In this document: piece by piece, positions 7,940-30,086 of the stretch
How the letters are laid out: each line of letters opens with the position of its first letter
How positions within the stretch are numbered: the stretch's first letter is position 1
From: Amoebophrya sp. A120
Lineage: Eukaryota > Protista > Dinoflagellata
DNA length: 64,000 bases
Direction of reading: 5' to 3'
Assembly: GCA_905178155.1 (NCBI GenBank)
Contig: CAJINV010000003.1
Span: 10,673,890-10,737,889, forward strand
Made by a program: the position numbers and the translations under genes
Notes under the pieces: model-generated
What the model was told of the DNA's origin: nothing
Databases searched by the model: none
The model's input: the letters and a program-made list of their open reading frames with translations, nothing else

Positions 7940-10450
7940 TCGCAAAAGATCAAGAACACGAGAAAGAATGCGATGTATCCATGTACGATTGTGTTTGTTG
8001 TATGACTATGACTACGAAGATTTCGAAGATGTGACGTTTCATCAACTTCAACACGACAGCGACACCACGAGTCGTGATGAAGCTGCACATTACTACAGAT
8101 CGAGCATGAATTTCACCTCCACTGAAAGACTGAAATCAATGAAAGGACAATGACATCAAATGAAAAGAACTACAATGTGAGAAGTTTCGACACGAACACG
8201 GTCATCAACACGGGCGGACAGACTCAGACCTTCCTGTAAAAGGATGACTCAGATACATTCCAAGAATGATTGTGCGGTCACATTCCTGCAGCGCTTCCCG
8301 AATAAAGTCCCACCTGGGTGGTGCGTGGCTTCCTCTTCGACGAGTTTATTAGTTCTTGTGTGGTACTTGCTCTTGCGCTTCCTTGCGCTTGCGGACGAAC
8401 TTGCAGAACTCGTGCGAAAACAGCAAACTAAATAAAGCGACAAGGCAGTAGGAGCCAAAAATCGGAAACTGCACTTCAGCCAAGAACTTGCAAAGCGAGA
8501 GACACAAAGAGAAAAGAGCTGCGCTACTACACCAGTCGGCCTTTTTTAAGGGGCGTATTTTTTTTTTCTGCGTTGATGCCTAGAATCAAATCTACAAATG
8601 AGTTTTGCATTTGCTCATTCTTTAAATTACGAGGACTCGTTCCTCGAATAGTCCGCGCTCCACGTGGCAATCCTCAATTAGTACCCAGCTCGCGGTAGTA
8701 CTCTTAATCAGAAACACTATTAATTTGATTTTGGGGCTAGAAGTACGTTAGACAGTCACTCGCTCGCCGAAATAAGAAGCGAGCACACGATTGATTTTTG
8801 GGGTTGTGTAAATTTCTTTGCGCAGCTACCTTCTTCTACGGCAGTTCTGGAATTATCGTCAGCGATTTGTGCACCTAGCATGATTGCGAGTGTTGACATT
8901 TGCTGCAGGGATGGGGAAGTCAGCTCGTCCGTCGGGTTTTTTCGTTTTATCTGCTTGGATGGGACGAAATAATTCAGATCGTCCGTCGTTGTGTACTATA
9001 GTACTTATAAGATTTTAATTTATACGCATCAACCATGACAACATGTTTCCTGATTCTCAGCAACAGCAAAGCCAAACTTGCTTATTTAAACTTTTACTTC
9101 AAGCTGTAGTGCATGCATCCACTCATGAGATGATCAACGTCGACATCGTCTATTGGGAGTATAATGTTGAATGTGATCGCGGTTGTCGATGCTTTTGAAA
9201 CAGAAAGTAGTGAACAGAGAGGGTTTCTTCTTCATTTTGGAGGTGGAGATGAAAGATCGGCTTCTTTATTCTTGATACATCAGCATCCCTTTATCGATAT
9301 TTTTCTTGAGGTTTGCTTGTCGTGTGTGTATGTTGCAGTGGTGTATTGTAACTTGCGAAATTCGAAATCGAACTCCATTCACACAGGACCCTCCCTCCAA
9401 TCAACAATCTGATGTTGTCGTTTCTTCTTGCATAGAGGGTGACGGCAATGCTGGTCGTGTTTTTTTCGATAGTGGGCGTGCAACGTAGTTGCCAGTATGA
9501 AGGACATACGACGATAACGCGTGGCATTCGGCGTTTTCTAGTCGCTATTGTGGTTGTACTCTTCAAAATCACGTTTGAGTTGTAGATCGTTTATGTTTGT
9601 ATGTATTTCGCAACCATTCTTTTCTGAAGTTCCTCGCGCTCACAAGTGTGTCTTCGGTTTATCTCGAGGAGATGAATTGTTGTATATTCTCCTCGTTTAT
9701 TTTTGATTATGTGTATACCGTATACACTCGTGTATGAACTAAAAAAAGAGTATCCCTCTATTGATGCGCCATCTCACCGAATACATGAGGCCACCTGATG
9801 ATGCCAGGCAGGGGAGAAATTGTGATCGGAGTTGTGGAAAGTGAATCGGCTTCTTTTTTGTTTCGCTTTCCTGAGACAGGGACAGCGAGGATGGCGATGG
9901 AAGAGGACGACACGGATACCAGCTGTGCATCGTGGTGGCTGTGTCGCGGACTTCAGAGTTCGAATTTTGTGACGGTGTGCAACGACCGCGGCGCGCTTTC
10001 TCGCAAACAGGAACAAGTAGGGGTAGGCATTCTCGCTACTTCCCGGCGTCAGTCAACATCCAACGGGTCCGGGCCGCTCTTGTGAGTGCAAGGCAGAGCG
10101 TGCTAAACGTGGAGGCGCTGCCGTTTCATCACGTAGTCCACGATATTAGTAGCACAGCTCCAGCAGATTCAGCAAATCGGGCGGCATTATTTTTCGCACG
10201 TTACCCCATCGGGCGGCATTTCCCGCACGATACCCAACGACATCGCCCCAACTCAGTACAGCATCACCATCCCCAGTGGTGCATCGGAACAGGCGCCACA
10301 CCCCGGGAGCGCTTTTCCCTTCATCTGACATCTCAGCACCGACCGAATAGTCGTGAAAGGAAGTGCTTCTACGCGGATTTCAGCTGCAGACTTACGCTGA
10401 GCATTATTTTCATTTCGTCCCTCGGGATCAACAGAAGTAATAGAGCCCGG

Positions 10451-13400
10451 ATGCCGTGGAGTATTTTCTCGCAGAAGCCGAAACCTCAGGCGCCGATTGG
10501 GCCATGGCTTAGAGACCTAGATGACGAGCGGTATTGGACGCTTTTTCAACAAGTCGAGGGAAAGGACAAGGCTTGTCTGCTCGAGGAAGCCCAGAAGCGA
10601 GATGTCCCGGCCTGGATTCAAGAGACTTTGTCAGCCGGGATTGAGCAGCAACAAGACAGAGAGCGCCGTGCTAGGAACTTGGAAAAGCTGCGGCGAGGGC
10701 AACTCAACAAGGACACCCTGGAGTCCCGAGGAGCAGGAGAAGCACAATCGGGGAAGCTGAATCGAAGCACGCCTGCTCTTCAACAATCTGCTGCGATCGG
10801 GACCGCGACCTCAAAGCCAAATGCTGGTGGGGAGATCGTCGTGTCGGGCAACATCTTCAACGCACGACGATCACCTACGTCCTCTCCACCGGTTGACCGA
10901 GAAGCGGGCGTTGCTGTAAACAGTACAGGGCTTCTTGTTCCGGACCGCGATAATTCCGATGAATACGATGACTTTGACGCGGGTCGTGCAGCTACACGTG
11001 CGAAAAACATAAGCAAGCGCGGTCGCGACGAGGAGGACGATGACGTGAGTCCGTGGTGGAAAGGCCGCAAAAACCGCTTGCGCAAAGTGAGGCAGTTGGA
11101 AGAAAGTCGCCATGAGACACAGCGCAAAGTTCGAGTAAGTGCGGCACCTCGTGAGATTTACTTTGGCAGGGCTTGGGGGCCAGCGAACGCGAAAGGCAGC
11201 CGGGTGGGTTTCGACACGGAAGATCAGGTGATGGAACACGAGGACCAGCTGCAGGAGGAGCGACGCGAATTGCAGATTGCTGAAGATGATGCAGTCCGAG
11301 GTGAAGAACACGACTCTGCGCCGGATCGTACAACGAAGTTTCGCGTGCTACACGTTGCCGGGATAGCAGATAGCAACCGCGCTGGCGTGCGTTTGCACCG
11401 GAGTGGAAAAATCGATCACCACGTTGCGACGGCAATGGCAGAGAGTGTGCAAAACCAGCGCGCGGTCCGTGTGGTGCCGCCTCACTTACACATGGAAAAC
11501 CGCCCTCCGGTGGTCCTTGACGATGAGAATTTGCGGGAAGAAGATTTTTCAGACCGCGAAGAAAATAAACACTCCCCTTTCAGCACGACCGCTGCACCGT
11601 CGCCGAAAAATCAGTACAATTGGAAGCGCGCAATTTCGGACTTTTTTCACTTCGGCACGCGCCCGCAAGGAGACTGGGACGAGAAGCGTTTCCAATTGCG
11701 CTTAAAGGAGCAAGCAAAGACGAAAGGCGCTTTGTTACGAGCTTTCCAAGCACGACGAGATGGAGAATTTGAAGAGCAGAAAATAAAAAGCGAAGACGGC
11801 GAGACGGCTGCATTCACGTTGGAACGTGCACAGAGGGAGGCGCGGTCGCGGGAGGGCCTCCTGCTGAACGCGATGCAGGATTTTGATGACTCGGAGTTTT
11901 TGCGACTAGACGAGGTGTTGCAACGTAGAGAAGAGGCTCGAAGGGACCACAAGGAAGACGCGCTGCCGCGCCCCAAATCCACCGTGGAGTTCGCGAGAAA
12001 GCTCGCAGGAATTCCCGTCGAGGTACTAGAAGAGGTGGAGAGGCGACGCGCTTTCACTTTGCAGAAACGGATCGAGAAACAGCCCTGGTGGCAACAGCGC
12101 GAGCGATTCGTTCGCCGCATCGCGGACTCGGCACAGCATGAGGAGGACTCTGACATTGTGGCCACAAGTCGTGGTAACAATATAACGAAAAGCGAAAACA
12201 ACATCAACGCGGCCACCAGCCTCATGTCCTCTTCCTCCATGTCGATCCTGAGTGCCACAACCGACGAGCAGAACTCTAGTGCCGACCCCGTGCCAAGCCT
12301 CGTGAGCCGTGCGGTGAGCGAAGCGCTTGTTCAAATGGGATTATCTTCATCTTCGCGGGTTACGAGGCTGAACGATGAAAATCTGCGTCGACTGGACCTC
12401 CGAACAGGACACCCGGGCAGAAGGGAACGCGTACCAACTGCCGCGGTGAACGATGCCAACAGCTGTCTGTCCGACGATGCGTCCTTGATCGCCCAAGACG
12501 GAAAAGACATCGCGCGCGCAGGTGTCTTCAAAACGGATGTGCACACAATGCTCACGCGCGAAGGCCGGCGAGGTAAAAATAGCTCCTGTTCTACTGCTCC
12601 TTCCAGCATGCTAAAAAAACAAGAAGCAGCACCTGCTCCCCCAGGGGAGGATCTACATCGAGATCGACTCAACTTTCAGCACAAGAACACCCCCGCTCCT
12701 CGTGCAACAAGTTCCACCTCCGACTCCTGCATGTCACAACAAGGAATACACCAAGAAATGCCCGTCACTAGACATAGACTCAAACGCCAGCAGCAGCATT
12801 TGGCTATGTCGCCGGCTCCTGGAGCTGCTGAGGCAGCCGTCAACGGTGGGGTACTTTCTAATTATTCCTCTGCTCCTCCTGGCGACATCGATGAAGAGAG
12901 AGCTGCTGTTCGTACGGCGCTTATTGGTCAGCACCAAGCTTCCAGCTTGTGGTCCCGTTTTGGGTTTCATAAGCAAGAGGCGTACCGTCTACCGAAGGCA
13001 AAGGACCACGAGATCATTGACGTGCAAGGAGCTGAGGAAGCTCCAATCGCAGCAGAAGTTTTGAATGATTGTATAGCCGCGGGGACGAGTTGGACGAGTT
13101 CGAAACCCGCAAAGTCGTATCGCGATCCGTCGTCCCTACCCCGAACGATTCTGCCGTTGGAACCCTTAGCCTCGCGCAGCGCTCAGATGGTAAGGAATGC
13201 CTTGTTCAATTTCGACAAAGGAGCTCCTCGCAACACAACACGGCTACCCCGGGAACGGAGTCCAGAAGTAGAAGATGAAGCCAAAAATGAAAATGTTGAA
13301 GAACAGGATGAAGACGGGCAGAAGAACGGCCGCCGCGAGGAGAAACAACATCGACGAGCAATTAATATCGGAAGCGCATTTCATAATAACCAAGCCCGAC

Positions 13401-16400
13401 AGGAGAGACAGAAGAACAAGGTCGGCACGCCAGCGTCGCGCGCCGGTTCTCTCGACCGCCGTGGTCGTCAGACGCCGGCCCCAGACGAAAAGACGCTGCT
13501 TCACTTTGTGGCGCCCACCAACGCCTCTGCACCGCCGCAATTGAGTGCCAACACGCTTCTCGGAAGCGGCCTCACCCTAGCGGACTTGGAGACACGGTAC
13601 CCCGGGGCGGTCCGTTGCAGCGGTTTCTTGCCGCTAGTCGATGCAGTAACTAACGGTTTTCGTGGTGAAAAACTCAGCGTCGCCAACTATCCTGATGCGT
13701 TCTCTTCCGGCCCTGGTGGGGGAATCTGCAGCGGCGAAGTGGACATCAAAGCGCGCCACGGGCGAGACGCGGTGAGGAGCAATAAAGAAATCGCAGAGGA
13801 CCACGTCGACAAAGGTGTGAAACTAAACAACTACAACACATCAGGCATGTGCTTGTCGACGACGACGCAGGTCATCGCAATAGGCAACGGAATCGTGCCA
13901 CTTCTCCGGATTGGCGGGGGTCGGCTAGATGAAGATGCCCCGACCTGCACCAGCGGCAGCGGCGGTGGTAGCAATAAACAAAAAAACATTTCCGGCAGAA
14001 CATGGAGTTGGGCAGCCGAAAACTTTTCCGAATATGCTCCTACCCTGCGGGGGCACGGCACGCACGCAAACGCCTCCGACACACACGGCCAAACTACAAA
14101 TAACACTCAACAAGCCGGAAGTAAGAACTCATACTGCTTCAGTGCTAACACAGCATCCAGCAGAATGCAACAGCAGAGACTGCGAGCACTTGCCCGACCC
14201 TCCCTTGAAGGACGACTACTGCGCGTTCAACTCGCGCGGGTGCGCGAGGCTAAGCCTCCGAAGAACCCTGGATGCCTTGCTAGCTGCTATCATTGTCTGT
14301 CGTTTTCGGGCGGGTGTTGCTGCTACGGACTGCAAAAGGGTTGCGCCTGCCTCCGCCGGTGGTTCTGCGATCCCATCGTGCTTCCCCTTTGGCTGCAGCC
14401 GGCTTTCATGTTGTTTCGTGTGCTTTTCTTATACCTTCGCGTGTTCTGGCACTGCGGAAAGCGTGAAGAAGTGACGACAAAGCCCAGCGCCCTTGGAGGG
14501 TTGTCACTCGGAGTGTTGAAAAACGAGACGAGATACCTTGACATTCAGCGATTTCGCAGTCGCAAACGCGAGGACGAGTCCGGTCTCACCGTCGTTTGGA
14601 ATGACTACATTCAGACTGGTCGTTTGCAGTTCTCACCGACAACAAGTCGTGGGTCAGCGGCTTCACCAGGCAGTCCAAAGAGGAGTGCGCGCGAAGTCCT
14701 AATGGAACGACATCGAGAAGGCGAGCACCTGCTCACGCAGGAGGAAGATGCTGGAAGCGGAGCAGCACTTGTCGTGGATAGCCTTGTCAACCCTGACGAT
14801 CAGGTTGATGATAACGCTCAGGAGCGGAAGAACGAAACCACGGGAGAACAAGAGCACGACTACACTTTCGATCTTTGCCACGATGTTGAAGCACCGGGCG
14901 GAAGCGTTGAGGTGGACCTTGTGAGGCATTGTGATCGTCCCCTGCAGCTTGTGAAAGAGAATACGAGCAGCAGCAAGGAGATCTCCCGATCAGCGGGTTG
15001 TGAATCTACTTCCGCTGGATACTTTCACTGTCCTGAAAGAAATAACGAAGATATGAGGGAGCATTCTGATGGAGTTGCAGTTGCCACGCCGGATGCAGCT
15101 GATCATTCCCAACGCAACATGAGCATGATCGTGGAGCACAGCGATCACCACCACGATCACCACGTCACCCAATGCGGCAAGAACAGTACATCAAAAAACA
15201 GTCCGTCAGTTGTAATTCCTAGTCTTTGGCCAGGCGATGCGCGTTCGGAGAACACGGTAGCGCAGCGCCCATCCCCGCAACAGAACCGTGCACAGGATAT
15301 TGGTGCTGGTAGGCACCGGCGGACTCAGTTTCTCCGAGAAGCCGCCACGGCCCGGTCGCGTGAACTATGTGCCCAGCATAACCTCTCCCCCGCAGAAGCA
15401 AAGTCGCGGGTGAAGCGAGAGTTGATGAGCACGATACTAGATTCCAGCCACTCCCCGCTTCTCTCGATAAACACCGAGCTGCTCGAGGAGCACCAGAAAC
15501 TACAAGGAAGTCGAGCCATAAGGAAACCGACGTTGCGAAGCGATGTAGAGCAGGAGCGCGGCCATCACGTTCGAATTGACGCTGCCAGCACGGACCTGCT
15601 ATCGAACAAGGGCGAGGGAGATGATTTCGAACGTGACGAGGAGAGTACCAGTACGACCACACCAGCGAGGTTTTTTCATTTTCCCAAAGTGCCCGAGAAG
15701 GCTCCGGAGCAGCTTGAGCTCGAAAAGATTTTGGCGGGTTACGGGCTTGACGGGACTACAAACCGGCCTCTAGAGCTCTTTCGCGGCGGTCGGAAGCCAC
15801 GCCGAGTGGTCGCAGGCTCGCTGGCCCGGGCGGTGGGGAATAAGAATCACCTACCTTATGGATCTGTCAGGTTCAAAGGAGACAAAGTGAAAGAAACAAC
15901 AAGTATGTATGAAATATTTCGTCACGACGCTGCATCAAGAAACCTACCAGTTTGACTTTGACACACAATCTCTAGGCGGCGCATGTTGACAAATCTTGGC
16001 ATCGCCGAAATGCAGTCTGTCGTCTGTGACGCTGTTTGGGAAAAGGAACCTGCTTCGTCCGTTATGATACTATACTTACTTGTCCAGTTCTATCCGATCT
16101 CTCTCTACTACCCCTAGACAGGGTCACAAACACAATCGGCTCCACTTGCCACCCCTACAAGACAGTCACTTAGTTCCTTGCGTTTTATGCATTACCGAGG
16201 ATGGTGGTGATTGGAGATGGCATCGGTGCGCCTGACTGCGCGACCTGGTGGCCTGACCATCTGCGGAAAGGCGGCCTTAGGGGTGGCGTTGTGGTTTCGG
16301 TCGGTTTATTGGCATTGCAGATTTTGTCAAACTCACACTTTGCCGATTTCAATCCTGACGCTTCCATATCTCTGTGGATACAGTTAGTGCTTTACTGAAC

Positions 16401-19400
16401 GCCTTCGACGATGGGCCGGGCGGAGTATGCATTGCAAATATGTCTTGGTCTGGAAGACGAAGATTGCAGCCTTCTTGTCATGCTGCCTTTGCCTCTGGAT
16501 TCGAAAAAAATTAAAATATGTCTTGCATGAGCAGTTGGGTAGGAGTCCAGTTTTTGCTGTGCAGAGAGGACATTTTTCATGCAGGGTAAGCATCAAAAAC
16601 CAAACGAAATCGAAAAGCCCTCAAAAAATCAGCGATGCTAGGACATGCAGCATCACAGACATCACGGGTCATGCAAAACGTGCGTGACAAACTAGCGCCC
16701 TTTTCCTTTTCTAGACCCAGACACATTTGTACTTGATACGGAGGGTTGCTGAACGAATTCGAGGCCGACGGACTGCGGCCCTTGGCTCTCCACGATCCAC
16801 CTACCGCAGCGAAGATCGACCTACAACTCGATGGCGCGCAACAAGACCAACGAGGAGATGCACTAAGATCAAGAAGATCCTCGGAGAGCACCAGAGGAAG
16901 TAATTGTAATAGAAACTGTCAAATGGAATTGGAAATGCCAAGCGAAAATGCCACAGCTGTGCAAAGCAGATACCAGCATCAAACGCTCCAAGAGCGAGCG
17001 GCCGATGTTTTCCGCTGGACACTTGCACTGGCGGAAAGAGCCAGAGGCCGCTCTGCAAACGAATGCAGCAGCGAAACAGGTATGAAGAATAATACGAACA
17101 ACGCTACGAAAAGGAATAGCGAGCTTGGTCCAGAGCAATTCGAGTCCTCAGTTGTGCTCACTGATGATCTGTGTGTGTACGTAAATGGGCGAGTAGTTCG
17201 CACTCGCTTTGACGCCCGGTATACCAAACAAGGCCAGTACTTTTTTGAAAACTCGCCCCCAGCAACTTCTGTGCAGAAAGACAATCATAATGGCCGCTTT
17301 GCTTCATCATCATCGTCATCCGCAACAACAAAGTCGAAAGGTGCTTCTACTGCAACTTCGTCGCTCATCAGTCATAAAAAACCGCACTTGCTAGACAGTG
17401 GCAAGACCCTCTCTGTCCTATTCACAACCACGCGGCTGACACTCTACCTCGACACTGTCCCACTACTTGTGTTTGGCTTCACGCACCGCGACAGGGACTA
17501 CCAGGATATCGTATCTGCGTCTGAGCCTCGATCAACGCGGCGGAAGCTAAGCACCGAAATTTGGCCTCTCGTGGGCATTGCAAAAAATCAACACGTTCAG
17601 GAAGTAATTCTCGTCATGTGCTCCTCCAATTCTCAAGCTTGGGAGGAGAGCACTTCGGTTTCGTCTCATTCTCAAGGAAGTCGACAAGCGAAGCTGCATG
17701 TCCTCCTCGAACAACACGGAAAGCTGAATGTGAATCAGAATCACGCTACAACGTCTGCAGCTACAACCAGTGATAGCGGCGCACAGAAACTGCAAGCAAA
17801 AGAAGAAAATCTAAACCCTCCCGTCCCGAAAGCAGAACACCTTCAAATCGAAGTGCCCACTTGCAGCGCCACCTACGCGGAAAGCGTTTGCTCTCCAGCA
17901 GATTTCTCTTTGATTCAAGAACGAGTGGTAGGTCGAAAGAACCCGCGCGTGCTTGCTGCATCTGCGAAGCGTAGAAGATCCCAAAACTTTCGAATCGAGG
18001 CGCAGATAGATGACGCGGATGACAGCACGCGACCGCCAGCAGGATATGACGACAGCATGATACTCGCCGACCGCCTGCTCCGGCGACCAACAAGCTACGA
18101 CCGAGAGCTCCACCGACTTGCTAGTTCGTGGATGATATTACTGAAAGCACATATATCTGGGTCTGGAAAGAACGCGCCAACTTGTGATGCCGAGTCTGGA
18201 GTGCACAAAAATGCAAATGTGTCTTTCATAGTGAGTAAAAAGTGTGCGCTTTTTGTCTCCCGAAAATGGCGCGCCTCATAGTAGACACAAGCGAGACAGC
18301 ACAAACACGGTCACGGAGAAGCCTGCTCCGAGGATCTTCTAATGCTCTGCGTCTATCTCCATTCCAGAAGCAGAACTTCTTGCAGGTGAAAAAATGAATG
18401 ACAGAGACAGATGTCAGCATTCGTCCAACACCAACAGACCCGGATATACTAGCCAGGGGGAAGGAATCTCTATCCCGAAGCGAAATCGAGAGCACTGGGA
18501 GGGGGGAAGCAGAACTAGAAGGAAAGGACGGGGGGGAAGGGTACGGGTGTGTCAGCTAGTCAGTTTCAGGTAGCCACTGGGGTCCTGGTTGTTTCGATGA
18601 GATTCGAGACGCGGCCGCTCTGCTCTTGGCCAAATTATATATTTGCGGAGCTCTTGCGGATAATTCTGGCTATGGAGCGGCATTTAACTTGGCAAGTCGC
18701 TGGCTGCCGATCTTATTTTTCCGCAGGTGTGGGCCGTTTTGTGGATCTTTGCTTGTGCGTTTATTTTGAGAACTATGCGCGTTTGAAGATCATGGCGCGC
18801 CTCATATTTTCCGCGGCGGGACTTTCTCGGAAGCTTGGCCGGAGCTTTTGCGTAGAAAGATCGGGAGGGCGTTCGCGCCGCCTCCTTCTCTATGTGCGAA
18901 CAGATTCCGGCGGCCATTTTCTCCCGTGTTTTCTTGTGTCTGTTGCGGGGCCTGTTTCTCTATCTGCGAACAGTTTGAAAACCACGCAGAAGCGACGAGG
19001 CAAACGGCGGAACACAACGAGGCGGGGAGGCCAGACCTTCGGGACAAGGAAGATAGAGACGGGAAAGAGTGGAAAGACGAAAAAGGCGGGAAAAACTGAA
19101 CAGACTGCGAGAACTGGGAGGGCTAGGGAAGCCTGTAAGAAAGACTGGGGCGGCTGAGGGGGCTGAGAAGCTCAAAAGGCGAATGAGGTTCGAAAGGTTG
19201 AGCAAACTGGAGAAGCCGGGAAGGCTGAAAACCTGGGAAGGCGGGGAAACGAAAGCGAGCAAGCCTGGAAGCGAAGGCGCTGACTTGCTGAGAGGCCTCG
19301 GCGTCGCTTTTGCCTAGAGCTGGAGGGCGTTCGCGCCGCCTCCCTCTCTATGTGCGAACAGATTCCGGAAGCTGTTCCGCGTTTCTCTTTGTTGCGGCGG

Positions 19401-21494
19401 CTGTTTTTCTGTCATAGAACTGCTAAGGCAACCGAGAGGCCAGCAGCTCCATGGAAAAGTCCGGCGGCCGCAGAGCCCAAAGGAGGCGCGGCGGGGCCCC
19501 GTTGCTGCAGCTTCGCAGCTTCAGCAGGCAGATTGGCTGGCGCGCCTGAAACAGCTGTGGCAGCTCGATAAGTAAGCGGAGCAGGCAGGAAAAGCCCGGG
19601 GTAGCTACAAAACCGGCTGTAGGTAGTTAAAGGACCGGCTTTAGTTAACAAGGCGGGTGGAGCTAACGAGCCGGGTTTAGCTAACAAGCCGGCTTTGGGT
19701 AAAAAACCGGCTTTAGCTAAAAAATCGGCTTCAGCTAAAAAACCGGCTTCCGCTAAAAAAGAAACCGGCCGCGGCTAACAAACCGGCTTCAGCTACAAAG
19801 CCGGCTTGGGCTTTAGCTAGAAAACCGGTCTTAGCTAAAAGAGCCGGGAACGAAGCTGGGAGGCCGACAGGCTGGGAGGTGGACAGGCTTGCTGGGAAGG
19901 TGGGGGGCTTGGGGGCTTGGAGGGCCAAAGGCTAAAAACGGAGAAGCGAAAACGAAAAAGCCAGGAGGCAGACAGGCTGGGAAGCGAGCAAGCTTGGAAG
20001 CGAAGGCGCTGACTTGCCGGGAGGCCTCGGCGTAGAATTTGCGTGCCTAGAGCGGGAGGGCGTTCGCGCCGCCTTTCTCTATGTGCGAACAGACTCGGGA
20101 AGCTGTTCCGCCTTTCTCTTTATTGCGGCGGCTGTTTTTCTGTCCTAGAACTGCTAGGGCAACCGAGAGGCCAGCAGCTCCATGGAAAAGCCCAGCGGCC
20201 GCAGAGCCCAAAGGAGGCGCGGCGGGGCCCCCGTGCTGCAGCTTCAGCAGCTAGACTGGCTGGCGCGCCTGAAACAACTGCGGCAGCTCTACAAAACCGG
20301 TTTTAGCTAAAGGAACGGCTCGAGCTAACAAGCCGGGTCTAGCTAACAAGCCGGGTTTAGCTAACAAGCCGGCTTCAGCTAAAAAATCGGCTTCAGCTAA
20401 AAAACCGGCTTCCGCTAAAGAAGAAACCGGCGTGCTCAGCTAAACGACCGGCGTCAGCTACAGTGTCGGCGTCAGCTACAGCGAAAAGAACCGGGAAGCC
20501 GGGAAGCCGGGAAACCGGGAAACCGGGAAACCGGGAAACCGGGAAACCGGGAAACCGGGAAACCGGGAAACCGGGAAACCGGGAAACCGGGAAACCGGGA
20601 AACCCTGGAGTGGTTTCGGGTAAGGGTATCGCTGGAGTGGTTTCGGGTAAGGGTACGCGGGGAGTAATAAAGTGCTTCACGATTTCAGTACTTTCGGGCA
20701 ATTTCTACCTTTCCCGGGTCTATATATATTTCCGATCGATAGATGAAGCTTGCCCTTGAAGAGCGCAGCACCGGTTTCCGGAAGGCGCCTTGCCCTAGTC
20801 TGTGGGAAGAGGAGCAGGCATTTCTCGCGGGGAAGATGCTCTCGTCGCTGAACAACCGGTACGGTGATTTTGGCGAGCTGGTTGACGTGGAGGGGGTTGC
20901 GTCCTCTACGAGGAAGACGCGCAGAAATATGGGAGTGCCGGGTCGAAAGTTCTCACAGTGGAAACGCTAATGCTTCGCCAGCATGCATGAAAATAAATAT
21001 AGTAAAATCGATACCAGTTGTAGTCTCACCCACCATTTGTGGTCTCATCCACTATGTGTAAGCGGCACACGAAAAGTTCTGCATCTTCTCACAACGTCTA
21101 GTATCAATTATGTACAACGCTGTTTGGCTTTGGTGCAAACTACATACCTGGCGCCCATGGCATGCTCTTTTGCAATCCTTACCATGGTTCTAGTCAGGGT
21201 TGCAGTCCGCCTTTTTCGCATTCCCGACACGGAGACAGCGACAGGCACTTTGTCGCCAGCATGTCGCGCTACGGTCCAAAATATTTCCACGATTTTGTGA
21301 ATTTCCAATCTGACAGCGCCATAAGGAAGTATCCCCCTATCCGGACCTCACACAGCTCACAGTCACAGAAGACGGGCGACGACCTGGAGATCGTGAAAGA
21401 GTTTCTTGCGGACGGCCGTGCGATCGACGCGCAGAGGAAGTTCTTGAGCCCCTCCGACGTGAAGAAACGCATGTCTATCAACCGGAAAAACTAG
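10451..21494 (+). CDS. ~2431-aa low-complexity protein with possible dispersed NHR/SPRY-like domain (exons 10451-15856, 16374-16425, 16744-18135, 20747-20969, 21272-21494)
   Basis: Four repeat-bounded introns join ORFs 9932, 16746, 20743 and 21162 in frame (7296 nt = 2432 codons): NHLP|VDTV, GPGG|GLLN, SSWM|KLAL, WKR|YGPK. Confidence 0.7.
15857..16368. mobile_element. 512-bp introner (family B)
   Basis: TATGGATCTGTCAGGTTCAAAGGAGACAAAGTG vs reverse complement of right end TATGGAAGCGTCAGGATTGAAATCGGCAAAGTG; DR TACCT/TCTCT. Confidence 0.8.
16426..16738. mobile_element. 313-bp introner (family A)
   Basis: Perfect DR CGGAG; 30-nt TIR, 23/30 identical. Confidence 0.9.
18136..20741. mobile_element. 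2606-bp introner containing nested repeats
   Basis: Perfect DR GATGA, TAT...ATA ends, weak ~33-nt TIR; removal joins ORF 16746 to ORF 20743 in frame. Confidence 0.8.
18860..20660. repeat. Compound repeat: three copies starting GAGGGCGTTCGCGCCGCCT (~18865, ~19323, ~20056; last two ~730 bp apart), CCGGCTT(C/T)AGCTAA arrays and a CCGGGAAA array at ~20490-20605
   Basis: Directly visible repeated units. Confidence 0.85.
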
Positions 21495-21642
21495 CTATCG
21501 CCGCATATTGAAATACAACAAAGAGAATGGGCAGAATCGGGGGCAGCATTTATTGCATTGCATAAGGAAAAGGAAAAGCTCATCAGCATGCTAGTGGCTC
21601 ACCCAAGGCCATGGCCGGTTTTCCTTTGTATGTAATCCATTT

Positions 21643-22353
21643 TTGCATGTCGTATGTGAACATGCGCTAGCTTCTTTCACGAGGATAATATACTGGCGGT
21701 ATAAGAACAGCATTCCAGTCAATTTTCGCCCACGCAAGATCGCAGGCTCACAAACAACCTCTGAGGTCATTTTGGAGGAAACCAGAGGACGGAGCCGACG
21801 GGTCTCTTTCGAGGAGCAGGAATTCACTGGAACAGTGGGCGACACGAAACTAGAAGACGTGCGGCACGAAGAGGAGGAGGATGCAGCAGTGGTCAGTGAT
21901 CGAGCTCCTGGTGCTCGTGGAGTCCTACTTGCATCTCCTCGCCAAGGACCTCCTTCCGTTCGCAACCGTCCCGACCTGGTTCGATTTCCTTCCCCCCCTT
22001 CAGCCAGCGAAAACTATAGAAGCAGCAATGTTGATGTTCTTCATTTTGATGAAGTCGGAAGCGTGTTTTCCGAAACCGATTCTGAGGAGGAGGAGGCACG
22101 CGCGCACTATGTTCGGAAATTTGTGCGGGCTTCTTTTCTCTGGCGGCATTCCTGGCGAATTCTCGTCAGCCTGATCCTGCTCACTGTCGCCGGCTGGAAT
22201 CTCGCAGCTTTGCCCCTGTTGCAAGATCGCAAATCGGACTACTGGAATCCGGACGATCATTTGTTCGTATTTTCGCCACTGTTTGGCTTCGTTGTGTTGC
22301 TTATTTTTTTCTTCTGGGTGCTACTTTGCTGGCCGAGATGCGCAGCAGACTGA
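21643..22353 (+). CDS. Small membrane protein with two C-terminal hydrophobic segments (start uncertain)
   Basis: 236-aa ORF with ILVSLILLTVAGWNLAALPLL and LFVFSPLFGFVVLLIFFFWVLL; same frame continues ~89 codons past the TGA. Confidence 0.55.
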   Translation: MHVVCEHALASFTRIIYWRYKNSIPVNFRPRKIAGSQTTSEVILEETRGRSRRVSFEEQEFTGTVGDTKLEDVRHEEEEDAAVVSDRAPGARGVLLASPRQGPPSVRNRPDLVRFPSPPSASENYRSSNVDVLHFDEVGSVFSETDSEEEEARAHYVRKFVRASFLWRHSWRILVSLILLTVAGWNLAALPLLQDRKSDYWNPDDHLFVFSPLFGFVVLLIFFFWVLLCWPRCAAD

Positions 22354-22609
22354 AGAGAGGAAGAAGTGGCTGTACGCGCGCGCCCGCACATGGTATTGCA
22401 ACATAAGGTACTGGACGACGTGTACTGGTACTATAAATTCATGTTGCAGGCCCTGCAGGAACAGAACTTAATACTACGAGCTGAAGCACCAGCACAAGCG
22501 CCAGCGCGCTATGACAAAGATATATTCTTGCAGCTTGGTTATGGTTGCTGTACGAGGGGAGTTCTCATTTGGATGTTGAAAATTGATTTTACGAGGGCCG
22601 ACTTTTGTT

Positions 22610-23229
22610 CTAGGGCAGGCTGAGCAATGGCCTGTACGGCAGACTGAACTTCACCACAGTAGAATAAACCGGAACTATCTCTATCACTATCATAGACATA
22701 GTAGGTTGTAGTTCGATGAGAAGCTACTTTGCGTTTTCGCTCTCGGTCGTAGTCGTCTCTTTATCTGCTCCTTTTTCATTGGCATGTATTGGAAGAACCG
22801 GAGTTGAGGTGACCTTGAATCATAATCCTTCGTCTCAGCAGAAGCACCTGGTGGCGCAGCTCGTCTTTTTGAACCTCGTCTGTGAGAATCGGATTCGTGG
22901 GATGAGTAATCGAGAAAGCCGAAGTTAGAAGTGGAAGACGATAGAGTGTGCGTGAGAAATCAGGAGAGCTGACTTCGATATATTTGTTGCACCTTCCTCC
23001 GCATTCAGAGCAGCGCGTTGATGTTTGCTTCGTTTCGATATTGAGATACTTCATGCAGTCGGTAGCTCCGAACAAGTTTTAGCCACCTCATCAAGGTATT
23101 GAGCAAGAGAAACTGCGTAAACGAAGACCATGAAGTCGTGGCTGCATCTGCTCCCAACGAGGAGCCTGCCGCTCACCCTTTTCACCGCTCAATCGGTCGC
23201 AAAAGTGGCCGGCCTTCTGCAGCGCGAGC
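22610..23229 (+). repeat. Segmental duplication copy 1 (upstream region + N-terminal coding of GT29 gene)
   Basis: Colinear with 27210-27969, e.g. GCAGCTCGTCTTTTTGAACCTCGTCTGTGAGAATCGGATTCGTGGGA in both, through MK(S/L)WLHLLPT...TLFTAQSVA...LLQRE. Confidence 0.9.
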
Positions 23230-26200
23230 GGAGCGAGTTACTCCGGAAGCGTCGCACTCGCGGGCACATAGAATGGCTCAGCGCCCGCCATCGACGTGCC
23301 AATGGCAGTTCTCGCGCGAGTACTCGCTCGGCGCCCTCAGAACGAGCGAACCCCGCGCAGGTGGAAGATCATCCTCTACTGTCTCTAGCTGCAGATAAGC
23401 GGCGCCAGAATGTGAATAACAGTAATCAGGATCACGACTCTACTCCTACCGTTGATCTTGCGGGATTCGTTATTGATGGCAGCCGTGACGCGTCCGGCGG
23501 CGACGGACACACGCCTTCCGCGGAGGGAAAAAAGATGCTCTGCCTGCTGCGGAAGAGCGTCGAGTTTCCATATGCAAAGTGGGACAAGGCGCCGGGCTCG
23601 ACGAAGGAGCTTGTGCTGCCCCTGACCGGAAAGACGTGTGCGGTTGTGTCTAACTCCGGAGCGCTTCTGAGCCACGAGTATGGCACGGAGATCGACAAGC
23701 ACGACGTCGTTGTGCGCCTCAACAGCGCGCCGACCGGGGGCTGGGAGAAGCAGGTCGGAGCGAAGGAGGACGTGTATATCGGCATGCACGTTGCACGATA
23801 TTCTGAACGAGATTTGCGCGGGGCCAGCGGCACTGCAGCAGGCACACTACCAGCGAAAGGGTACCGTGGCTTGGGAACTGGATAAACACCTCCGGCTAGC
23901 GCAAAAAAGCACGAGAAAACTCCTCCAGCTGGCACAGCAGGAGGATCCGGAGGCGCTTCTGCTTCTGCGCCCCTCGAAAAATAGTGACACTGGCGATGAT
24001 GCGGACTGGAGCATGACGACAATAAATGCGACGGCAACCTACTTGTCGTTCCCTAGTGGGCAACCGATGCACGAAACACGGCGCACAGGTCGGACGAAAG
24101 AAAAGTTAGCAAAAACTACACGCCAGTCTCCATCAGCATCGACATCCCATCGCTCGATGATTACAGCTCTACGAACCTCGTCGTCAACACACTTTTGCAA
24201 CCACGGCGCCAAGAAACTAGATTCTGGAGCCAAAAAAAACGATGCAGAAACGGCGGAGGGTGACGTGGAAGAAGATTTCCAAGGGTCTGTTTCGTCCACG
24301 AATTTAAGCTCGGCGACGTCTTTAATTCAGGTACTACGCCGGGCGAAGTTGACGTCATCCCGTACGACCCGCCCTGCGGAAGCCACGACATCTTTTGCGC
24401 CAAGGCAAGTGCTACAGGAGCTGCAGCACAGGGTGGAAAAGTTACGTCGGGCGTACGATGACGTACGTCGGGTTGTTTTAGCAGAAAAAAAAGACAACCT
24501 GCGTCGAAATGCAGCTGCCAAAAGCAAGACAATTTACGTCGAGTATCTGAGTCCTGAGGAAATAAAGGAGCTCGTGCCCCGGTGCGCCAAGCACAACATC
24601 ACCGTGAAGGCCTTCGCGAAGGTATCACAAAAAAAAGTGCACACGTGCACGACTGTTTTTCCTTTTCCCGAAAAATGTTTTTTGTCGCCTCCCTCAAGAC
24701 GCTCACCTGTATCAATGCAGACACTTGCTACGAAGCTAGCTAGTAGATTGGCAGTCTGTCAGAGGTGGCGCACCTAGTGCACACGGTCCCATGGTGATCG
24801 TTGTCAAGGTCCGAAAGAGACGGGAAAAATAAGACCCATCAAGCTGGCCTCCGCTCATTGTCTCATCTCATAACGGCCGTCAAAAAGCAGGTCGAGAAAG
24901 CCCGGAGCTGTCACTCTACTTCCTAGAGGCGGGACGCCTGCAGGTCGTACACCCAGCGGGCCACCTTTCCCTGTCGCTGACTACGAAAATCGCCCACCAA
25001 CGAGTCGCCACTAGCGAAACCGTGGAGGGGCCCCTTTTTGGGGAGGTGCAGGGCCCAAGAACATGCCACGCAATCTAGAGACGGCACGCGCTGTTTTTCT
25101 TGGGTTCAAGAAACTCCGCAGGAAAAGATGAGGCGAAATTATCTGAATCAATTCTGAGTGCGAAAATTGCGCACCCTCCGGAAGCCGTGCGCATCGCATC
25201 CAACCTGCCCGGTATGCTGGTGGATGTGCACGGTCTACAAAGCGGCCAGGTTCGGTCGTGGCGGTCCTTCTGAACCGTGTATATATCGACCATAGCATAC
25301 GGTCTTCTAGGTGCGACGTGCGCGGTTTTTGGCGGCCACGTGCAAAATTTATCACAAATTTTCCAGCACCGCAACCGTGTTCATGGACCACAGCGTAGGG
25401 GCTAGGCTCCGCGTGGCCAATCTGAAAAGTTTGGCCTTGGGAGTATGCAAAATAAAACTTGCCTCTGCCTGTTTTCGCATATCCGAAATGTGGGGACTTC
25501 ATATCCGAAATGCGGGAAGCGCAAGCGACACAGCAAAACGACCCAGCATAAAGATCTGCAGCAGCGCGCGCGCCGACCTAACAATATTTTTCCACAGCCC
25601 CCGGCAATGTTTCCAACCCGCGGACAGCCGGGCGGCGGGGGGTCAAGTATATTTATGGCGTGTGGGTCGCTGCGGGGTACTGAAGGGCAAGCTGCTCCGC
25701 GGCTTAGCAAGTTGCCCCATCTCGGCCCGGAAGCGGAGGCTGGCCCTGGCTTGATGGATATCCTTGCACAGATTGCGCCGGACTTTGGCGGCCAGCCGGA
25801 ACACAAATTGTTGCGCTCATGGTTATTTATAATTATATTATTTCAATTTCACTAAGAAAATGAGGAGCGCCGGCCTATCTAGCTTCATAGCGAAGGGGAA
25901 GGCATCAAGTGTGGACGCTGTGCCTCGCCAGGGAGGAGGCACACAAAGTGTTTTTTGGAGAAAAACGAAAACCGTGCACATGTGCGCTTTTTCTTGTGAT
26001 AGAAGGAGCTTGGGTTCGATGCACAACGCGGCCAGCTCTCCGCCTTTCTCTCCGCCATGTATCCCGGAGGCGGTTCAAAGAGTCTGCGGGTTCCGGGACA
26101 AAGCCTCGACATCACTACGGGGTTCCGCGCGGCGGTCTTGATGGCCGCACACTGCAAACACGTGGACTTGTACGAGATGGCGCCGAGCCGCAAAGCGGCG

Positions 26201-27025
26201 AATGATCGAAAGCTACAATACCAATACTTCAAGGCGCATTGTTGCACCGCAGAGGAACTGGAGTGGATCGAGGCCGCGGTGAAGAAATCTCAGTCACTAA
26301 AACTACTCTTGACCGAAGGAGAAGTACGACGCAGGAAGATCGAGCGGGCCAAAGGCAGGGTCGAACAAGAAGTAGAGATGAGCGATTTGCTGAGCACGAC
26401 GGACGAGGGCCACAACTATGCCGGTACAAATAAGGATTACGCACAGCCGCAGCAGAACAAGGCCAAAAGTGACTGCAGCCCCGGGCCGATGTCGATGTGC
26501 GCAGACACGTCAGAAGATGAGGAAACCGAGAACAAAGCTTCCAGGAGCAATGAAGAAAGTCAAAGTTTTCTCCTCCGAAAAATCATAGCCACGCTTGTCG
26601 AGGCGCGTGAAAATGAGACAGATGAGGTGCTTGACGATGAATGCGGTGTCTTCAAGGAGGCAGACGTTTCCTTAGATGACTCGTCGCGGGCCACTTCCTC
26701 GCGGAGCGCGGTGAAGGGCGCAAGGCAGTATGCGGAGGAGTTTTCGCTCGAGAGCGATGAAAAAAAAGACTATGCTGGGGGTCGTCGTCCTTGTCCCGGT
26801 CGTGTCGCAATGGGGGAGCTGCTACAGGAGATCGAGAACAAGGACCCGGAGCCCTGGGGGCAGGGGGCCCTGCGAACGTTTTCCGACTGGCACGTGCTTT
26901 ACCGAGCCGAGCACGACTTCTACCGCCGCACCGCCATCACACCAGCGGCTGAGTCTTTCGAAACGGGAAAGGTGCAGCTACCCGGGCTTGCGAATCTTGA
27001 CTGCGAAGGAGGCGAATTAAAGTAA
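23130..27025 (+). CDS. GT29 sialyltransferase, ST6Gal-like (segments 23130-23790, 23798-24621, 26006-27025); 7-nt frameshift at ~23791, possibly pseudogenised
   Basis: Sialylmotif L CAVVSNSGALLSHEYGTEIDKHDVVVRLNSAPTGGWEKQVGAK, motif S TTGFRAAVLMAAHCKHVDLYEMAPS, motif III YQYF, VS-like WHVLYRAEH, C-terminal GKVQLPGLANLDC. Confidence 0.85.
24623..26001. mobile_element. 1379-bp introner whose DR creates canonical GT-AG sites
   Basis: Perfect DR GAAGG; TIR 26/29 (TATCACAAAAAAAAGTGCACACGTGCACG); splice AFAK|ELGFDAQ...AMYPGG in frame. Confidence 0.92.
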
Positions 27026-27209
27026 AAAAACCGAGGAGCACGAGTTTAGATCTTCAAACTTAATAAATCAAAAAAGAAAAACGGCGTGCGCTGTGAGTCA
27101 ATGCATCTTTTTATTTTTCAAGAAAAAAATGAATGCAATTGCAAACGCATCTCACCATACCTATGTATTTCCAGCAACCTATGTGTTTCCTTTGAGCTAT
27201 GCCTATGGC

Positions 27210-27969
27210 TTTAGGGCAGAGGTGTTTCCAGCAGCCTTCTATGAGCTATGGCCTTTAGTGCAGACTGAGCAGCACCGCAGTAGAACCGGAACAACTATCA
27301 CTAACACTATCTCCATGACGACGCCCATTATAGACATAGTTATACCATAGTGCAATGACGAGAAGCTACCTGTTTGCGTTTTCGCTCTCGTAGTCCTCGT
27401 GTCTTCATCTGCGCCGTTGTCATGGGCATGTACTCGAACCGGAGCTCAGGTGACCTTGAATCATGATCCTTCGTCGCAGCAGAAGCACAAGCACCTGGCG
27501 CAGCTCGTCTTTTTGAACCTCGTCTGTGAGAATCGGATTCGTGGGACGAGTAAGCGAGAGAGCCGAAGTTAAAAGTGGAAGCCGATAGAGTGTCCGTGAG
27601 CAATCAGGAGAACTGACTTCGATATATTTCGTGCTCCTTCATCCGCATTCAAGGCGCGTTGATTTTTGTTTCGTTTCGATTTGCTTTTGCATTTATTGAG
27701 CAGATACTTTTATTTCTGTGGTGCTGGTGCATGATCTGCGTCTGCCTCACAACATGTGACGTGTAGACAATGATCTGCCTCACAAGTCAGTGTCCTCGGT
27801 AGCTTCGAACACGTTTTCGCGACCTCATCAATGTATTGAGCAAGGGAAGCTGTGTGGTAAACAAAGACCATGAAGTTGTGGCTGCACCTGCTCCCAACTT
27901 CGAGCCTGTTGCTCACCCTCTTCACCGCTCAATCGGTCGCGACACTGGCGGACCTTCTGCAACGCGAGA
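27210..27969 (+). repeat. Segmental duplication copy 2 (upstream region + N-terminus of methyltransferase gene), with ~130-nt extra segment
   Basis: Colinear with 22610-23229. Confidence 0.9.
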
Positions 27970-30086
27970 GAGGAGATACCACAAAAAGTGGAGCGCTGCG
28001 TGAGAAAATGCAAAAGCAAGGACAACGAGAGCGACCGACAAGCAACAGCATTCCGGACTGGGGTGTGGGCATGTTTCAGTACTTCCGTCCCACAATATCC
28101 TGGGTCGAATACACCGTGCCGGTGGAGAGCTTCGCGGCTTTGGTTGCGACCACGAGCAAAGAGGGCCAGGGGCACAGTGGACCGAAAATCGTCTTCGACA
28201 GCGATCTGGACGACGCACTACTCTCACCCGCCGTGAAGGCGAACACGAACCACCCGGACGCGCACAGTTCCATGACGTTGCTGCAGGCTGGCACGAATGG
28301 GGAGAAGAATACAGATGGTGAGAACAAGCTCAGCAGCGCAATCACGATCGGTGATCAGAACGAAGAACAACAACAACACCGAGCGATCACGAAAAATAAA
28401 ATCGAGAACTACCTCGCACTTCGCGTGCAGTTTGCAGATGCAGTCGCGCAGCACCGTCTGCGGGACTTGCCGCCCGGAAGTCTGTACGCGTTTCCGGTGC
28501 GCAATTTCCGAGAGCTGGCGACCGCGCACCGGTTCGTGGAGCTCACTTCGGCGGCGAAAGACTCTGTCGGCTCGCACATGAACCCGGCCAAGGACGACCA
28601 TGGCATGCAGGCCTTTGCGTGCTGGCTGACGCGGGCGGCGGACGGAAAGGGCGGCTGCGTGGTCGAACTTCGGGCAGAGGCCGAGAAGATGGAGGGGCAC
28701 TTGAAGAACGGGCTGTCAGACGCGGAACCGAGTATAGGGTCGGCGTAACTGCTCAAACTGTTGATCCACCACAGCCTCGGGAGTGCTATTACTAGTCGCA
28801 CTACATCTCCTGCGCTAATAGCGGGAGGTCGTGTTGACCAATCAGCTGCTGCTTTCCTTTCCGAACAAATCGAGGGCGAGACCCCTGCCCAGTGGGCACG
28901 GACCGCGTCGCATTTCTACCAAACGGCGAAAGCCACCGACACGGACAAGGTGACGTCCCACCAGTACCACAACATGTGCGGCAAGTACCTCCCACAAAAG
29001 CTTTCCGACAGTTCCAAAACCGCCAAGCCGCTGTTCGAGATCGGGCTGGGGTATTCCCTGAAAATTAACCATCCCGATCCAATTTGTTGTGCAAAGCATA
29101 GTACGCAGTCGATTTCTCCTGTCATGCAAAACCAAAAAGTGGATGGGGATGCATGGCTAATTTCCAAGGAATATGGGGTGCAACATGGGGTACGGGCCGG
29201 GAGCCTCCGCGCAGCTTTGGCAAAAGCTCGGGTGGAAAGACGTGCACTTCATGGAGGTGGACCGGTCATGTGCGGAGAACTGGAAAGAGAAGATCGCGAA
29301 AGAAGGCTACCAAGTGCACATCGGCGACCAACAGGAAAGCGCGGCACTTGAAGAGGTCAAGGCCAACCTGGATTTCGAGGTGGAGGTGGTTGTGGACGAC
29401 GGCGGGCACTGGAACAAGCAAATCCTGACCTCCTTCTACACCCTGTGGCCGATCGTGCGCAACGGCGGTTTTTACTTCGTCGAGGACTGGGCAGAAGTTG
29501 CCTACTTATCAAGTGCAAAAATGTGTTGGCCTGGAAACTTCTGATGTTTTTTAGTTTGAGAAAGGTTATGGTGGGCGTACTGCAATACGCTTACGCACCC
29601 GCGCGTGACAAGTTTCTGGACTCCTTTATTGCGTTTCGCTTTTCAATTCCACCTGGCAAACTTCACTTTTGCCTTACAGGGAAGACGAAGAGGCTTTTCT
29701 CCTGGTCAGATATTACAGATTTAACTGTCAACATGTGAGACAAGCATGACAAACCTACATACCCGATGAACCTGCAAACGCGACAAACCTCATGTGAGAC
29801 AAGTATGACAAACCTGCGTCGGGTATACATGACAGACCTGCACTCTTCCAGACCCAGACACTTTTGCAGTGCATACTACTACACCGGCTACTATGACGCG
29901 CCGAAAAACGGAGTCGGGCGGGTGGGCGACGAGAAGCCGGGGACTTTTCAGTGGGAGATCGGCATGATGTTGCGCCACCTGTTCTGTAAACCGCTGAAGA
30001 CGCCCTGCTATGGTAATTTTGCTTTTATCGAGACGCAGTTCAGCCACGTGTTGTTTCGGAAGGGAGGGGAGGAAATGGAGGTGTGA
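27870..30086 (+). CDS. SAM-dependent O-methyltransferase, MycE/ElmMI-like sugar O-MTase family (exons ~27870-28731, 28846-29051, 29179-29506, 29881-30086; ~533 aa)
   Basis: TDKVTSHQYHNM, LFEIGLGCNMGYGPGAS, HIGDQ, VVVDDGGH, TSFYTLWPIVRNGGFYFVEDW; first intron GT-AG 28732-28845 (less certain) plus two introners; 1602 nt in frame. Confidence 0.8.
29052..29173. mobile_element. 122-bp introner (family C)
   Basis: Perfect DR TGGGG; TIR 18/21; splice restores EIGLG|CNMGYGPG. Confidence 0.93.
29507..29875. mobile_element. 369-bp introner (family A, reverse orientation to 16426)
   Basis: Perfect DR CTACT; TATCAAGTGCAAAAATGTG...ACACTTTTGCAGTGCATA; internal ~26-nt direct repeat CATGTGAGACAAG.ATGACAAACCT; splice EVAY|YTGYY. 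Confidence 0.9.

What the first reader, a model, noticed from the sequence alone, without database searches (positions are those of the whole stretch)
16426..29875. Same introner family appears spliceable in either orientation
16426-16738 has the TATGCATTGCAAA arm 5' and the TATCAAGTACAAA arm 3'. 29507-29875 has TATCAAGTGCAAA 5' and TATGCACTGCAAA 3'. Both hosts are on the + strand. Likewise the TACGAGTAC...TTTTGCAATGCATA end is the 3' end of a Rab intron (56607) but the 5' end of an intron in the minus-strand gene (579). Strand-independent removal argues against fixed branch-point or polypyrimidine signals and for symmetric, hairpin-defined recognition.
Basis: partly seen in the sequence, partly recalled or inferred. 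Interest (0 to 1): 0.72.

Follow-up and report, generated by a model that had tools for sequence, protein, structure and literature searches.

The report
Reversible transposon introns, lopsided fixed cut
Two copies of one small jumping-DNA family sit facing opposite ways inside genes on the same strand of what is likely the marine parasite Amoebophrya, and both are cleanly missing from probable RNA contigs, likely because the cutting signals lie in the element's mirror-image ends; such introns are already published, but this narrows how their unexplained removal could work.

Summary
16426-16738 (A) and 29507-29875 (B) are TAT...ATA elements with exact 5-nt flanking repeats. Their cores do not align directly, but a core-only profile from 136 relatives in another assembly places A on the minus strand (108 bits) and B on the plus strand (39 bits). 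Both hosts are plus-strand, and two probable RNA runs lack each element plus 5 nt. Among the relatives both orientations occur relative to predicted host strand (47:31). All 21 RNA-supported elements fit one cut, 1 nt before TAT and 4 nt after ATA, following transcription. Orientation independence does not argue against fixed signals, because signals inside the inverted repeats read alike either way; tests for selection on pairing were mostly negative. The elements match published Amoebophrya A120 introners; either-way introners are known in Polarella and Aureococcus; the closest working analogue is the Euglena N3-CAG...CTG-N5 code. The scan found the same on other pieces of this genome.

The parts
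16426..16738 (.). Element A: 313-nt TAT...ATA element, 5-nt direct repeat CGGAG; core runs against the family profile; intron in register 16425-16742 on + (GT..GA)
   Evidence: (table 8, records 1 and 6)
29507..29875 (.). Element B: 369-nt element, direct repeat CTACT; core runs with the family profile, with about 100 nt of repeated subterminal units near its right end; intron in register 29506-29879 on + (TT..AC)
   Evidence: (joint 29501>29876)
18139..20741 (.). Third, decayed member of the same family, oriented like A, with a large internal insertion; flanking repeat lost, so the cut is unique: intron 18138-20745 (TT..TG)
   Evidence: 28.7 bits, minus strand
9875..21467 (+). Host of A: reading frame of at least 2583 codons after removing four elements; no Pfam match in the three pieces scanned
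28749..30086 (+). Host of B: class I SAM-dependent methyltransferase gene (PF13578) with two elements
29052..29173 (.). 122-nt element of another family in B's host, removed with 5 nt
   Evidence: joint 29046>29174
15857..16368 (.). 512-nt element of a second family, 49-57 nt upstream of A, removed with 5 nt
20928..21323 (.). Element with decayed flanking repeat; three possible cuts, one in register
21476..21687 (.). Element with decayed flanking repeat; two possible cuts, one in register
24623..26001 (.). 1379-nt element whose in-register cut gives GT..AG from its flanking repeat GAAGG
53894..56607 (.). 2.7-kb element (tandem repeats and an assembly gap inside) forming a Rab intron; 56607 is its 3' end
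534..579 (.). Right arm of an element whose left end was not found in the window; predicted 3' end of an intron in a plus-strand gene, not a 5' end in a minus-strand gene
44766..44949 (.). Element without flanking repeat; unique cut in register (GT..TC)
51409..51960 (.). Element without flanking repeat; unique cut in register (GT..GC)
52617..52935 (.). Rab intron element without flanking repeat; unique cut in register (AT..CC)

Best explanation
A and B are oppositely oriented copies of one small transposon family with inverted-repeat ends, both are missing from probable RNA contigs with five extra bases, and they are likely removed by a relaxed major spliceosome that reads only signals lying inside the inverted repeats. 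Steps. (1) Shown: TAT...ATA ends, 5-nt flanking repeat, opposite core orientation, plus-strand hosts, removal of element + 5 nt. (2) Inferred: a cut-and-paste transposase made the 5-nt duplication and inserts either way round. (3) Shown where the repeat has decayed: the intron starts 1 nt before TAT and ends 4 nt after ATA, so 1+4 equals the duplication and the original mRNA is restored whatever the target sequence. (4) Inferred: the 5' end N-U-A-U is read like a G-U-A-U donor whose first base is free; the 3' end is set by distance from A-U-A, perhaps helped by the U-run at -15..-17 and by pairing of the arms, not by AG. Because both ends come from the inverted repeat, flipping the element changes nothing that the machinery sees.
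For: Orientation: (A's 12 best core matches all reversed, best 137 versus 42; B's 12 best all forward, best 120 versus 28). Relatives in JACKZZ01 contigs: 47:31, 27:19, 14:11 at three cut-offs of a codon model (leave-one-out 75 of 77 correct at the lowest cut-off); 11:7 by long frames; 8:4 where element+5 opens >=90 codons on both sides; 1:4 where Pfam fixes the strand (5 of 97 pieces hit; codon model agreed in 5 of 5); neighbouring cores 44 same: 43 opposite, 19:11 within 400 nt, and two opposite copies in one frame in L008. Removal of +5 opens >=100 codons both sides in 12 of 55 loci versus 3-5 for +3, +4, +6, +7. Register: 17 of 21 RNA-only joints displayed fit it, four with a unique cut. 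+2 T and +3 A in 19 of 19, -7 A and -6 T in 19 of 19, while +1, -1, -2 vary. All 18 commonest non-canonical site types in Farhat Table S4 have T second; A25 repeats begin TTA-R-R and its common types begin TT, which would again put U at +2 and A at +3 (my inference). U2, U4, U5, U6 are reported in A120 and 15% of its GT-AG introns share the repeat layout.
Against: No lariat, branch point or spliceosome data. U1 was not detected in A120. No conserved U2-pairing sequence upstream of the invariant A's. G+1 and the AG, which the spliceosome normally needs (recalled), are free. Euglena uses the same kind of code with essential pairing and its introns leave as circles, machinery unknown. RNA evidence is unstranded contigs of two samples of one study, RNA by guess; the raw-read run X10 laid 2 reads only. 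Only three family copies are in this genome's window; the tally is from another assembly with no RNA and predicted strands (L049 was called minus and plus). A second family had 5 of 5 linked copies co-oriented. All RNA-supported hosts are plus-strand, so the mirrored cut on a minus-strand gene was not seen.
Confidence: 0.5

Rival explanations
1. Euglena-like route: the arms pair, and a dedicated nuclease and ligase, or an unknown complex, cuts at fixed distances from the base of the stem without a lariat.
For: Same design as the tested Euglena code N3-CAG...CTG-N5, where motif, spacers and pairing are all needed; end dinucleotides free; own arms pair better than all swapped arms in 7 of 19 introns; terminal three pairs predicted at >=0.68 in 9 of 15; arm position 14 covaries (93 of 136 versus 67 +/- 5.7); U1 undetected.
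Against: Terminal pairs predicted below 0.2 in 6 of 15, B among them; 43117 pairs no better than swapped arms (rank 15 of 36) and lacks the terminal A-U pair, yet is removed; G.U 53 versus A.C 51; positions 4, 5, 7, 10 pair no more than shuffled. Complementary arms are expected from transposon origin alone. The position-14 signal may be shared descent. These tests cannot exclude need for a short stem, since conserved positions pair anyway.
Confidence: 0.33
2. A DNA-binding protein (for example a tamed transposase domain) marks both inverted repeats on the template and steers splicing during transcription.
For: Would explain indifference to orientation and tolerance of weak RNA pairing; subterminal CATGACA-type units face inward from both ends of A, B and relatives.
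Against: No protein or binding evidence; unrelated families share only TAT/ATA and a loose A-run; Farhat found no transposase in A120.
Confidence: 0.08
3. The joints are reverse-transcriptase jumps between direct repeats at the base of a hairpin, not splicing.
For: Hairpin plus direct repeat is the setting for such jumps (recalled); A and B have perfect repeats; evidence is assembled contigs.
Against: Four elements without a flanking repeat are removed at a unique in-register cut; removal restores a 2583-codon frame, a methyltransferase and a full Rab.
Confidence: 0.03
4. The elements are cut out of DNA in some life stage, like ciliate internal eliminated sequences.
For: TA-containing ends inside coding exons; X1 and X4 are RNA only by guess.
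Against: X1 and X4 also lack plain GT-AG introns; run X6 holds the elements joined to exons and none of the displayed clean joints; the lopsided cut has host polarity in all 8 informative introns.
Confidence: 0.03

Closest known systems
Amoebophrya sp. A120 introner elements (Farhat et al. 2021, PMC7789003; seen: abstract, sections 10-12 and 16, passages of methods, supplement legends S19-S25 and Table S4/S7 rows; figures not seen)
   Same: Non-GT-AG introns with terminal inverted repeats starting TAT, seven loose bases, then AAA; 3-5 nt direct repeats; no transposase inside; high density in coding exons.
   Different: That paper calls the splice position relative to the hairpin variable or unknown (Fig. 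3 legend; Fig. S23 legend says 1-5 nt) and the text I read does not treat element orientation. Here: one fixed -1/+4 cut and one family in both orientations.
Either-orientation introners of Polarella glacialis and Aureococcus anophagefferens (Roy et al., bioRxiv 10.1101/2020.10.14.339549; seen: first quarter of text and passages; Huff 2016 not held, known only through Roy's statement)
   Same: DNA-transposon copies that make introns when inserted either way, using the target duplication; usually some bias to one orientation.
   Different: They need GT/GC/GA and AG, so target sequence is constrained. Here only the T at +2 is fixed, it comes from the element, and flanking repeats show no required base.
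Euglena nonconventional introns (PMC12501133, passages; review PMC11282704, passages); also hemistasiid diplonemids (PMC12621601, abstract only)
   Same: Mirror-image triplets at fixed, unequal distances from the cuts, free terminal dinucleotides, pairing potential, likely transposon origin.
   Different: CAG/CTG with 3+5 spacers versus TAT/ATA with 1+4; pairing shown essential and circular products reported there, untested here; no fixed U at +2 is described there.
MITEs (non-autonomous TIR DNA transposons)
   Same: Short, multicopy, inverted ends, constant target duplication (exact 5 nt in 117 of 148 relatives), random orientation.
   Different: Sit in coding exons and are removed exactly; the mobilising transposase is unknown.

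Membership tests
Amoebophrya A120-type introner element | Terminal inverted repeats starting TAT, +7, AAA | tested here: met
   A and B, both arms
Amoebophrya A120-type introner element | 3-5 nt direct repeat at the borders | tested here: met
   exact 5 nt
Amoebophrya A120-type introner element | Removed from transcripts without GT-AG | tested here: met
   contigs of runs that are RNA by guess; A reads GT..GA, B TT..AC in register
Amoebophrya A120-type introner element | Repeated in the genome | tested here: met
   three copies in the window; X6 depth about 30,000 over A and B versus about 45 elsewhere, not a copy number
Amoebophrya A120-type introner element | Genome is Amoebophrya A120 | not testable with these tools
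   no genome held; inferred from the repeat signature
U2-type spliceosomal intron | GT/GC..AG ends | tested here: not met
   1 of 19 RNA-supported elements reads GT..AG in register
U2-type spliceosomal intron | Lariat with branch A, snRNP dependence | not testable with these tools
   only contigs were laid; no branch consensus seen
Euglena-type nonconventional intron | CAG at +4, CTG at -8, spacers 3 and 5 | tested here: not met
   TAT at +2, ATA at -7, spacers 1 and 4; works alike, not a member
Euglena-type nonconventional intron | Pairing of the arms required | tested here: inconclusive
Euglena-type nonconventional intron | Excised as full-length circle | not testable with these tools
   needs excised-intron sequencing
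MITE | TIR, constant TSD, non-coding, multicopy | tested here: met
MITE | Cognate autonomous transposase | not tested
   no genome available to search

The most novel reading that the evidence does not exclude
Amoebophrya runs a second splicing route, evolved independently of Euglena's but to the same design: a stem-reading nuclease and ligase cut 1 and 4 nt outside a UAU/AUA helix, offsets that add up to the transposon's 5-nt duplication, so any copy in any orientation at any site becomes a silent intron.
Probability: 0.3. Interest if true: 0.85.

Novelty: new variant of a known kind. Interest (0 to 1): 0.5.

Why it matters
About two thirds of this parasite's introns lack GT-AG and how they are removed is open (Farhat 2021). 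Orientation independence plus a fixed lopsided cut confines all required signals to roughly 20 nt at each end and gives a rule (N-TAT...ATA-NNNN) for gene prediction and reporter tests. It also explains the invasion: an element that is silent at any target and in either direction has far more harmless insertion sites than introners that need G and AG from the target. Whether a spliceosome can drop G+1 and AG, or a new enzyme pair does the job, either answer would interest splicing specialists.

Tried and rejected
Direct A-B core alignment: no signal in either orientation after trimming 40 or 60 nt; no single relative matches both well (best bridge 31/45), so the link rests on the family profile and A and B are distant subfamilies. 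Arm type as orientation marker: rejected; in a second family the 3' arm of 15857 best matches the 5' arm of 39040 though their cores are co-oriented through 36795. 579 as a 5' end in a minus gene: rejected by frame test. 2026-2147 versus 29052-29173 as a second inverted pair: undecided, nearly palindromic (global 70 same, 78 reversed). 625 versus 1637: weak reversed match (30, null max 23, one of many pairs tested), not counted. 36095, 43118, 52043, 2196 share arms with A/B but their cores give no clear orientation. Unfiltered inverted-repeat scan was too noisy. Viral contigs: 0 matches. Rfam on the window: 0 matches. Raw-read run X10 laid 2 reads, so no strand or lariat data. Pfam hit only 5 of 97 flank pieces. 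A first frame-restoration test at >=70 codons was weak (20 of 72 versus 13-17). Rows left out: 12 of 148 relatives outside 235-305 nt or with repeat match under 3 before orienting; one with orientation consistency under 0.8; joints 16457>16709 (also in X6, repeat cross-mapping) and 41556>41638 (one run, palindrome, does not fit, not analysed); 56 and 10 joint rows were not displayed. Huff 2016 was not held; bioRxiv supplements and all figures were not seen and could hold orientation data.
Full report
WHAT IS THERE. The window is dense with elements that begin TAT and end ATA. Of 14 pairs with a strong inverted-repeat score, 10 have an exact 5-nt direct repeat outside the ends and at most 1 has an exact repeat of another length from 2 to 9; shuffles give almost no such pairs. 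This matches the description of Amoebophrya A120 introners, TAT + 7 + AAA (Farhat 2021). No genome is held, so the organism is inferred.

ARE THEY REMOVED? Runs X1 and X4 (contigs, RNA by guess, two samples of one study), X6 (kind unknown, behaves as DNA) and X10 (raw RNA, 2 reads laid) were laid on 14500-31200. B: joint 29501>29876 skips 374 = 369+5 in X1 (depth 108) and X4 (82), not in X6. A: no joint row was among those displayed, but one record in each run runs 14500-15854, 49 letters, 16739-18137; the 835 nt missing equal the neighbouring 512-nt element +5 and A +5. Removing four elements gives 2583 codons without a stop on the plus strand; the best minus frame around A is 178. B's host is a plus-strand methyltransferase, in frame across both elements. 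Contigs carry no strand; strand comes from frames and Pfam.

ARE THEY ONE FAMILY, INVERTED? These gave 148 complete elements, 117 with an exact 5-nt repeat. For 136 of them the cores define a direction (median 97% of pairs consistent). A profile of cores only, 35 nt trimmed from each end, hits A on minus (107.8 bits), B on plus (38.8; reverse 6.7) and a third copy inside intron 18138-20745 on minus (28.7); a reversed-window decoy scores at most 1.8 bits; pairwise, A's 12 best matches are all reversed and B's all forward. Its marker is not: arm types are C/C 58, C/G 46, G/C 24, G/G 8 relative to the core, about 55% accuracy for a pair.

THE SECOND EXAMPLE FAILS. 56607 is the 3' end of a Rab intron that starts at 53893; the assembled Rab reads through. 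The exon after 579 joins a plus-strand frame of 303 codons over elements at 625, 1637, 2026 and 2196; minus frames reach 139 at best and score at or below about zero in the codon model, against +12.5 for the plus frame. This is prediction without RNA, but it makes 579 a 3' end too.

IS ORIENTATION FREE IN GENERAL? In the JACKZZ01 loci (another genome, copies 65-70% like A, no RNA), orientation against predicted host strand was 47:31 (p 0.09 against even), 27:19 and 14:11 at rising cut-offs; the model was right in 75 of 77 leave-one-out window tests at the lowest cut-off and agreed with all 5 Pfam-fixed strands (those split 1:4). Long frames gave 11:7 and 8:4 (L049 conflicts between the two). 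Without any annotation, neighbouring cores were 44 same: 43 opposite, 19:11 within 400 nt, and L008 has two opposite copies in one frame. Removing element+5 opens at least 100 codons on both sides in 12 of 55 loci against 3-5 for other offsets. A mild bias to A's orientation is possible. Against generality, five linked copies of a second window family are all co-oriented.

THE CUT. Of 21 RNA-only joints displayed (66 further rows, of any run, not displayed), 16 fit an intron that starts 1 nt before TAT and ends 4 nt after ATA, one is two such introns around a 20-nt exon, three are plain GT-AG and one is a palindrome skip. Three more elements follow from contig pieces and a loose end. Four cuts are unique (18137, 44764, 51407, 52615), three have two options and one has three; this register is the only one common to all. 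In 19 tabulated introns +2 T, +3 A, -7 A, -6 T are invariant, +4 T and -5 A are 18 of 19, and +1, -1, -2 take all or nearly all bases. Farhat's Fig. 3 legend calls the position variable or unknown, yet all 18 commonest types in its Table S4 have T second. Exact removal where the repeat has decayed argues against reverse-transcriptase jumps; host polarity argues against DNA excision.

MECHANISM. Flipping an element with inverted ends leaves both end signals unchanged on the transcript, so orientation independence excludes only core signals. It does not separate sequence reading from hairpin reading, and Polarella and Aureococcus introners work either way with ordinary ends. For a relaxed spliceosome: U at +2 and A at +3 sit where a donor has them (yeast GUAUGU is recalled, not from a call); A25 seems to put the same two bases there from a different repeat (inference); U2, U4, U5, U6 are reported; 24622 is both an element and GT-AG. 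For a hairpin route: the Euglena code has the same design and needs pairing, U1 is undetected, own arms beat all swapped arms in 7 of 19 introns, and position 14 covaries. Against a strict hairpin need: terminal pairing under 0.2 in 6 of 15 folded introns, 43117 pairs no better than swapped arms, G.U 53 versus A.C 51 in 75 copies, no covariation at positions 4, 5, 7, 10. I put the spliceosome at 0.5 and the Euglena-like route at about 0.33.

NOVELTY. The elements are published. Either-way introners are published for other species. Six literature searches and the passages read showed no statement of either-way splicing or a fixed register for Amoebophrya; Gozashti 2025 required same-direction alignment when building families while Gozashti 2022 allowed both. 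Subscription papers, figures and unseen supplements may hold it. Earlier notes of this scan reached the same reading on other pieces of this genome; I had it before looking and they are not independent support.

Noticed in passing
window 51974-57083 +: Rab gene broken by at least five introns, with exons of 20 and 34 nt; one intron is a 2.7-kb element holding GC-rich tandem repeats and the assembly gap.
   Followed up: partly
window 57081: A further TAT arm in the Rab gene resembles the right arm of 2026-2147; no matching right end with a flanking repeat was found within 700 nt.
   Followed up: partly
window 6240, 15857, 36795, 39040, 60824: Second element family (TATGG...GTCAGG arms, no AAA at 11-13); the five linked cores are co-oriented although arm similarity suggests otherwise.
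   Followed up: partly
window 2026-2147 and 29052-29173: Two 122-nt near-palindromic copies of one family; orientation cannot be decided.
   Followed up: partly
window 625-930 and 1637-1932: Weak reversed core match between two elements of one predicted plus-strand gene; 1637 starts TGT instead of TAT and in register reads GT.
   Followed up: partly
window 18139-20741: Family member swollen to 2.6 kb by internal multicopy repeats (19253-20494), still removed exactly.
   Followed up: partly
window 40161-41706: Repeat region (109-nt tandem units, palindromes) with many variant letters in X1 and X4 and long loose ends: probably a larger multicopy element; one 81-nt palindrome skip in X1.
   Followed up: no
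window 31313-32402: Long nested inverted repeats (178 nt at 88%; inner palindromes 31750-31982).
   Followed up: no
window 29740-29840 and JACKZZ01 copies: Subterminal CATGACA-type units repeated and facing inward from both ends; candidate transposase binding sites.
   Followed up: no
L001-L167 (JACKZZ01 contigs): A different assembly carries the same element family at high density with nearly identical arms but cores 65-70% like A; copies often only 45-70 nt apart.
   Followed up: partly
JACKZZ01 copies, arm position 14: The only arm position that covaries between the two ends (A/A or T/T); shared descent, arm conversion or pairing.
   Followed up: partly
window 51378-51994: Contigs covering intron 51408-51964 unspliced are present beside the spliced form in X1 and X4.
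   Followed up: no
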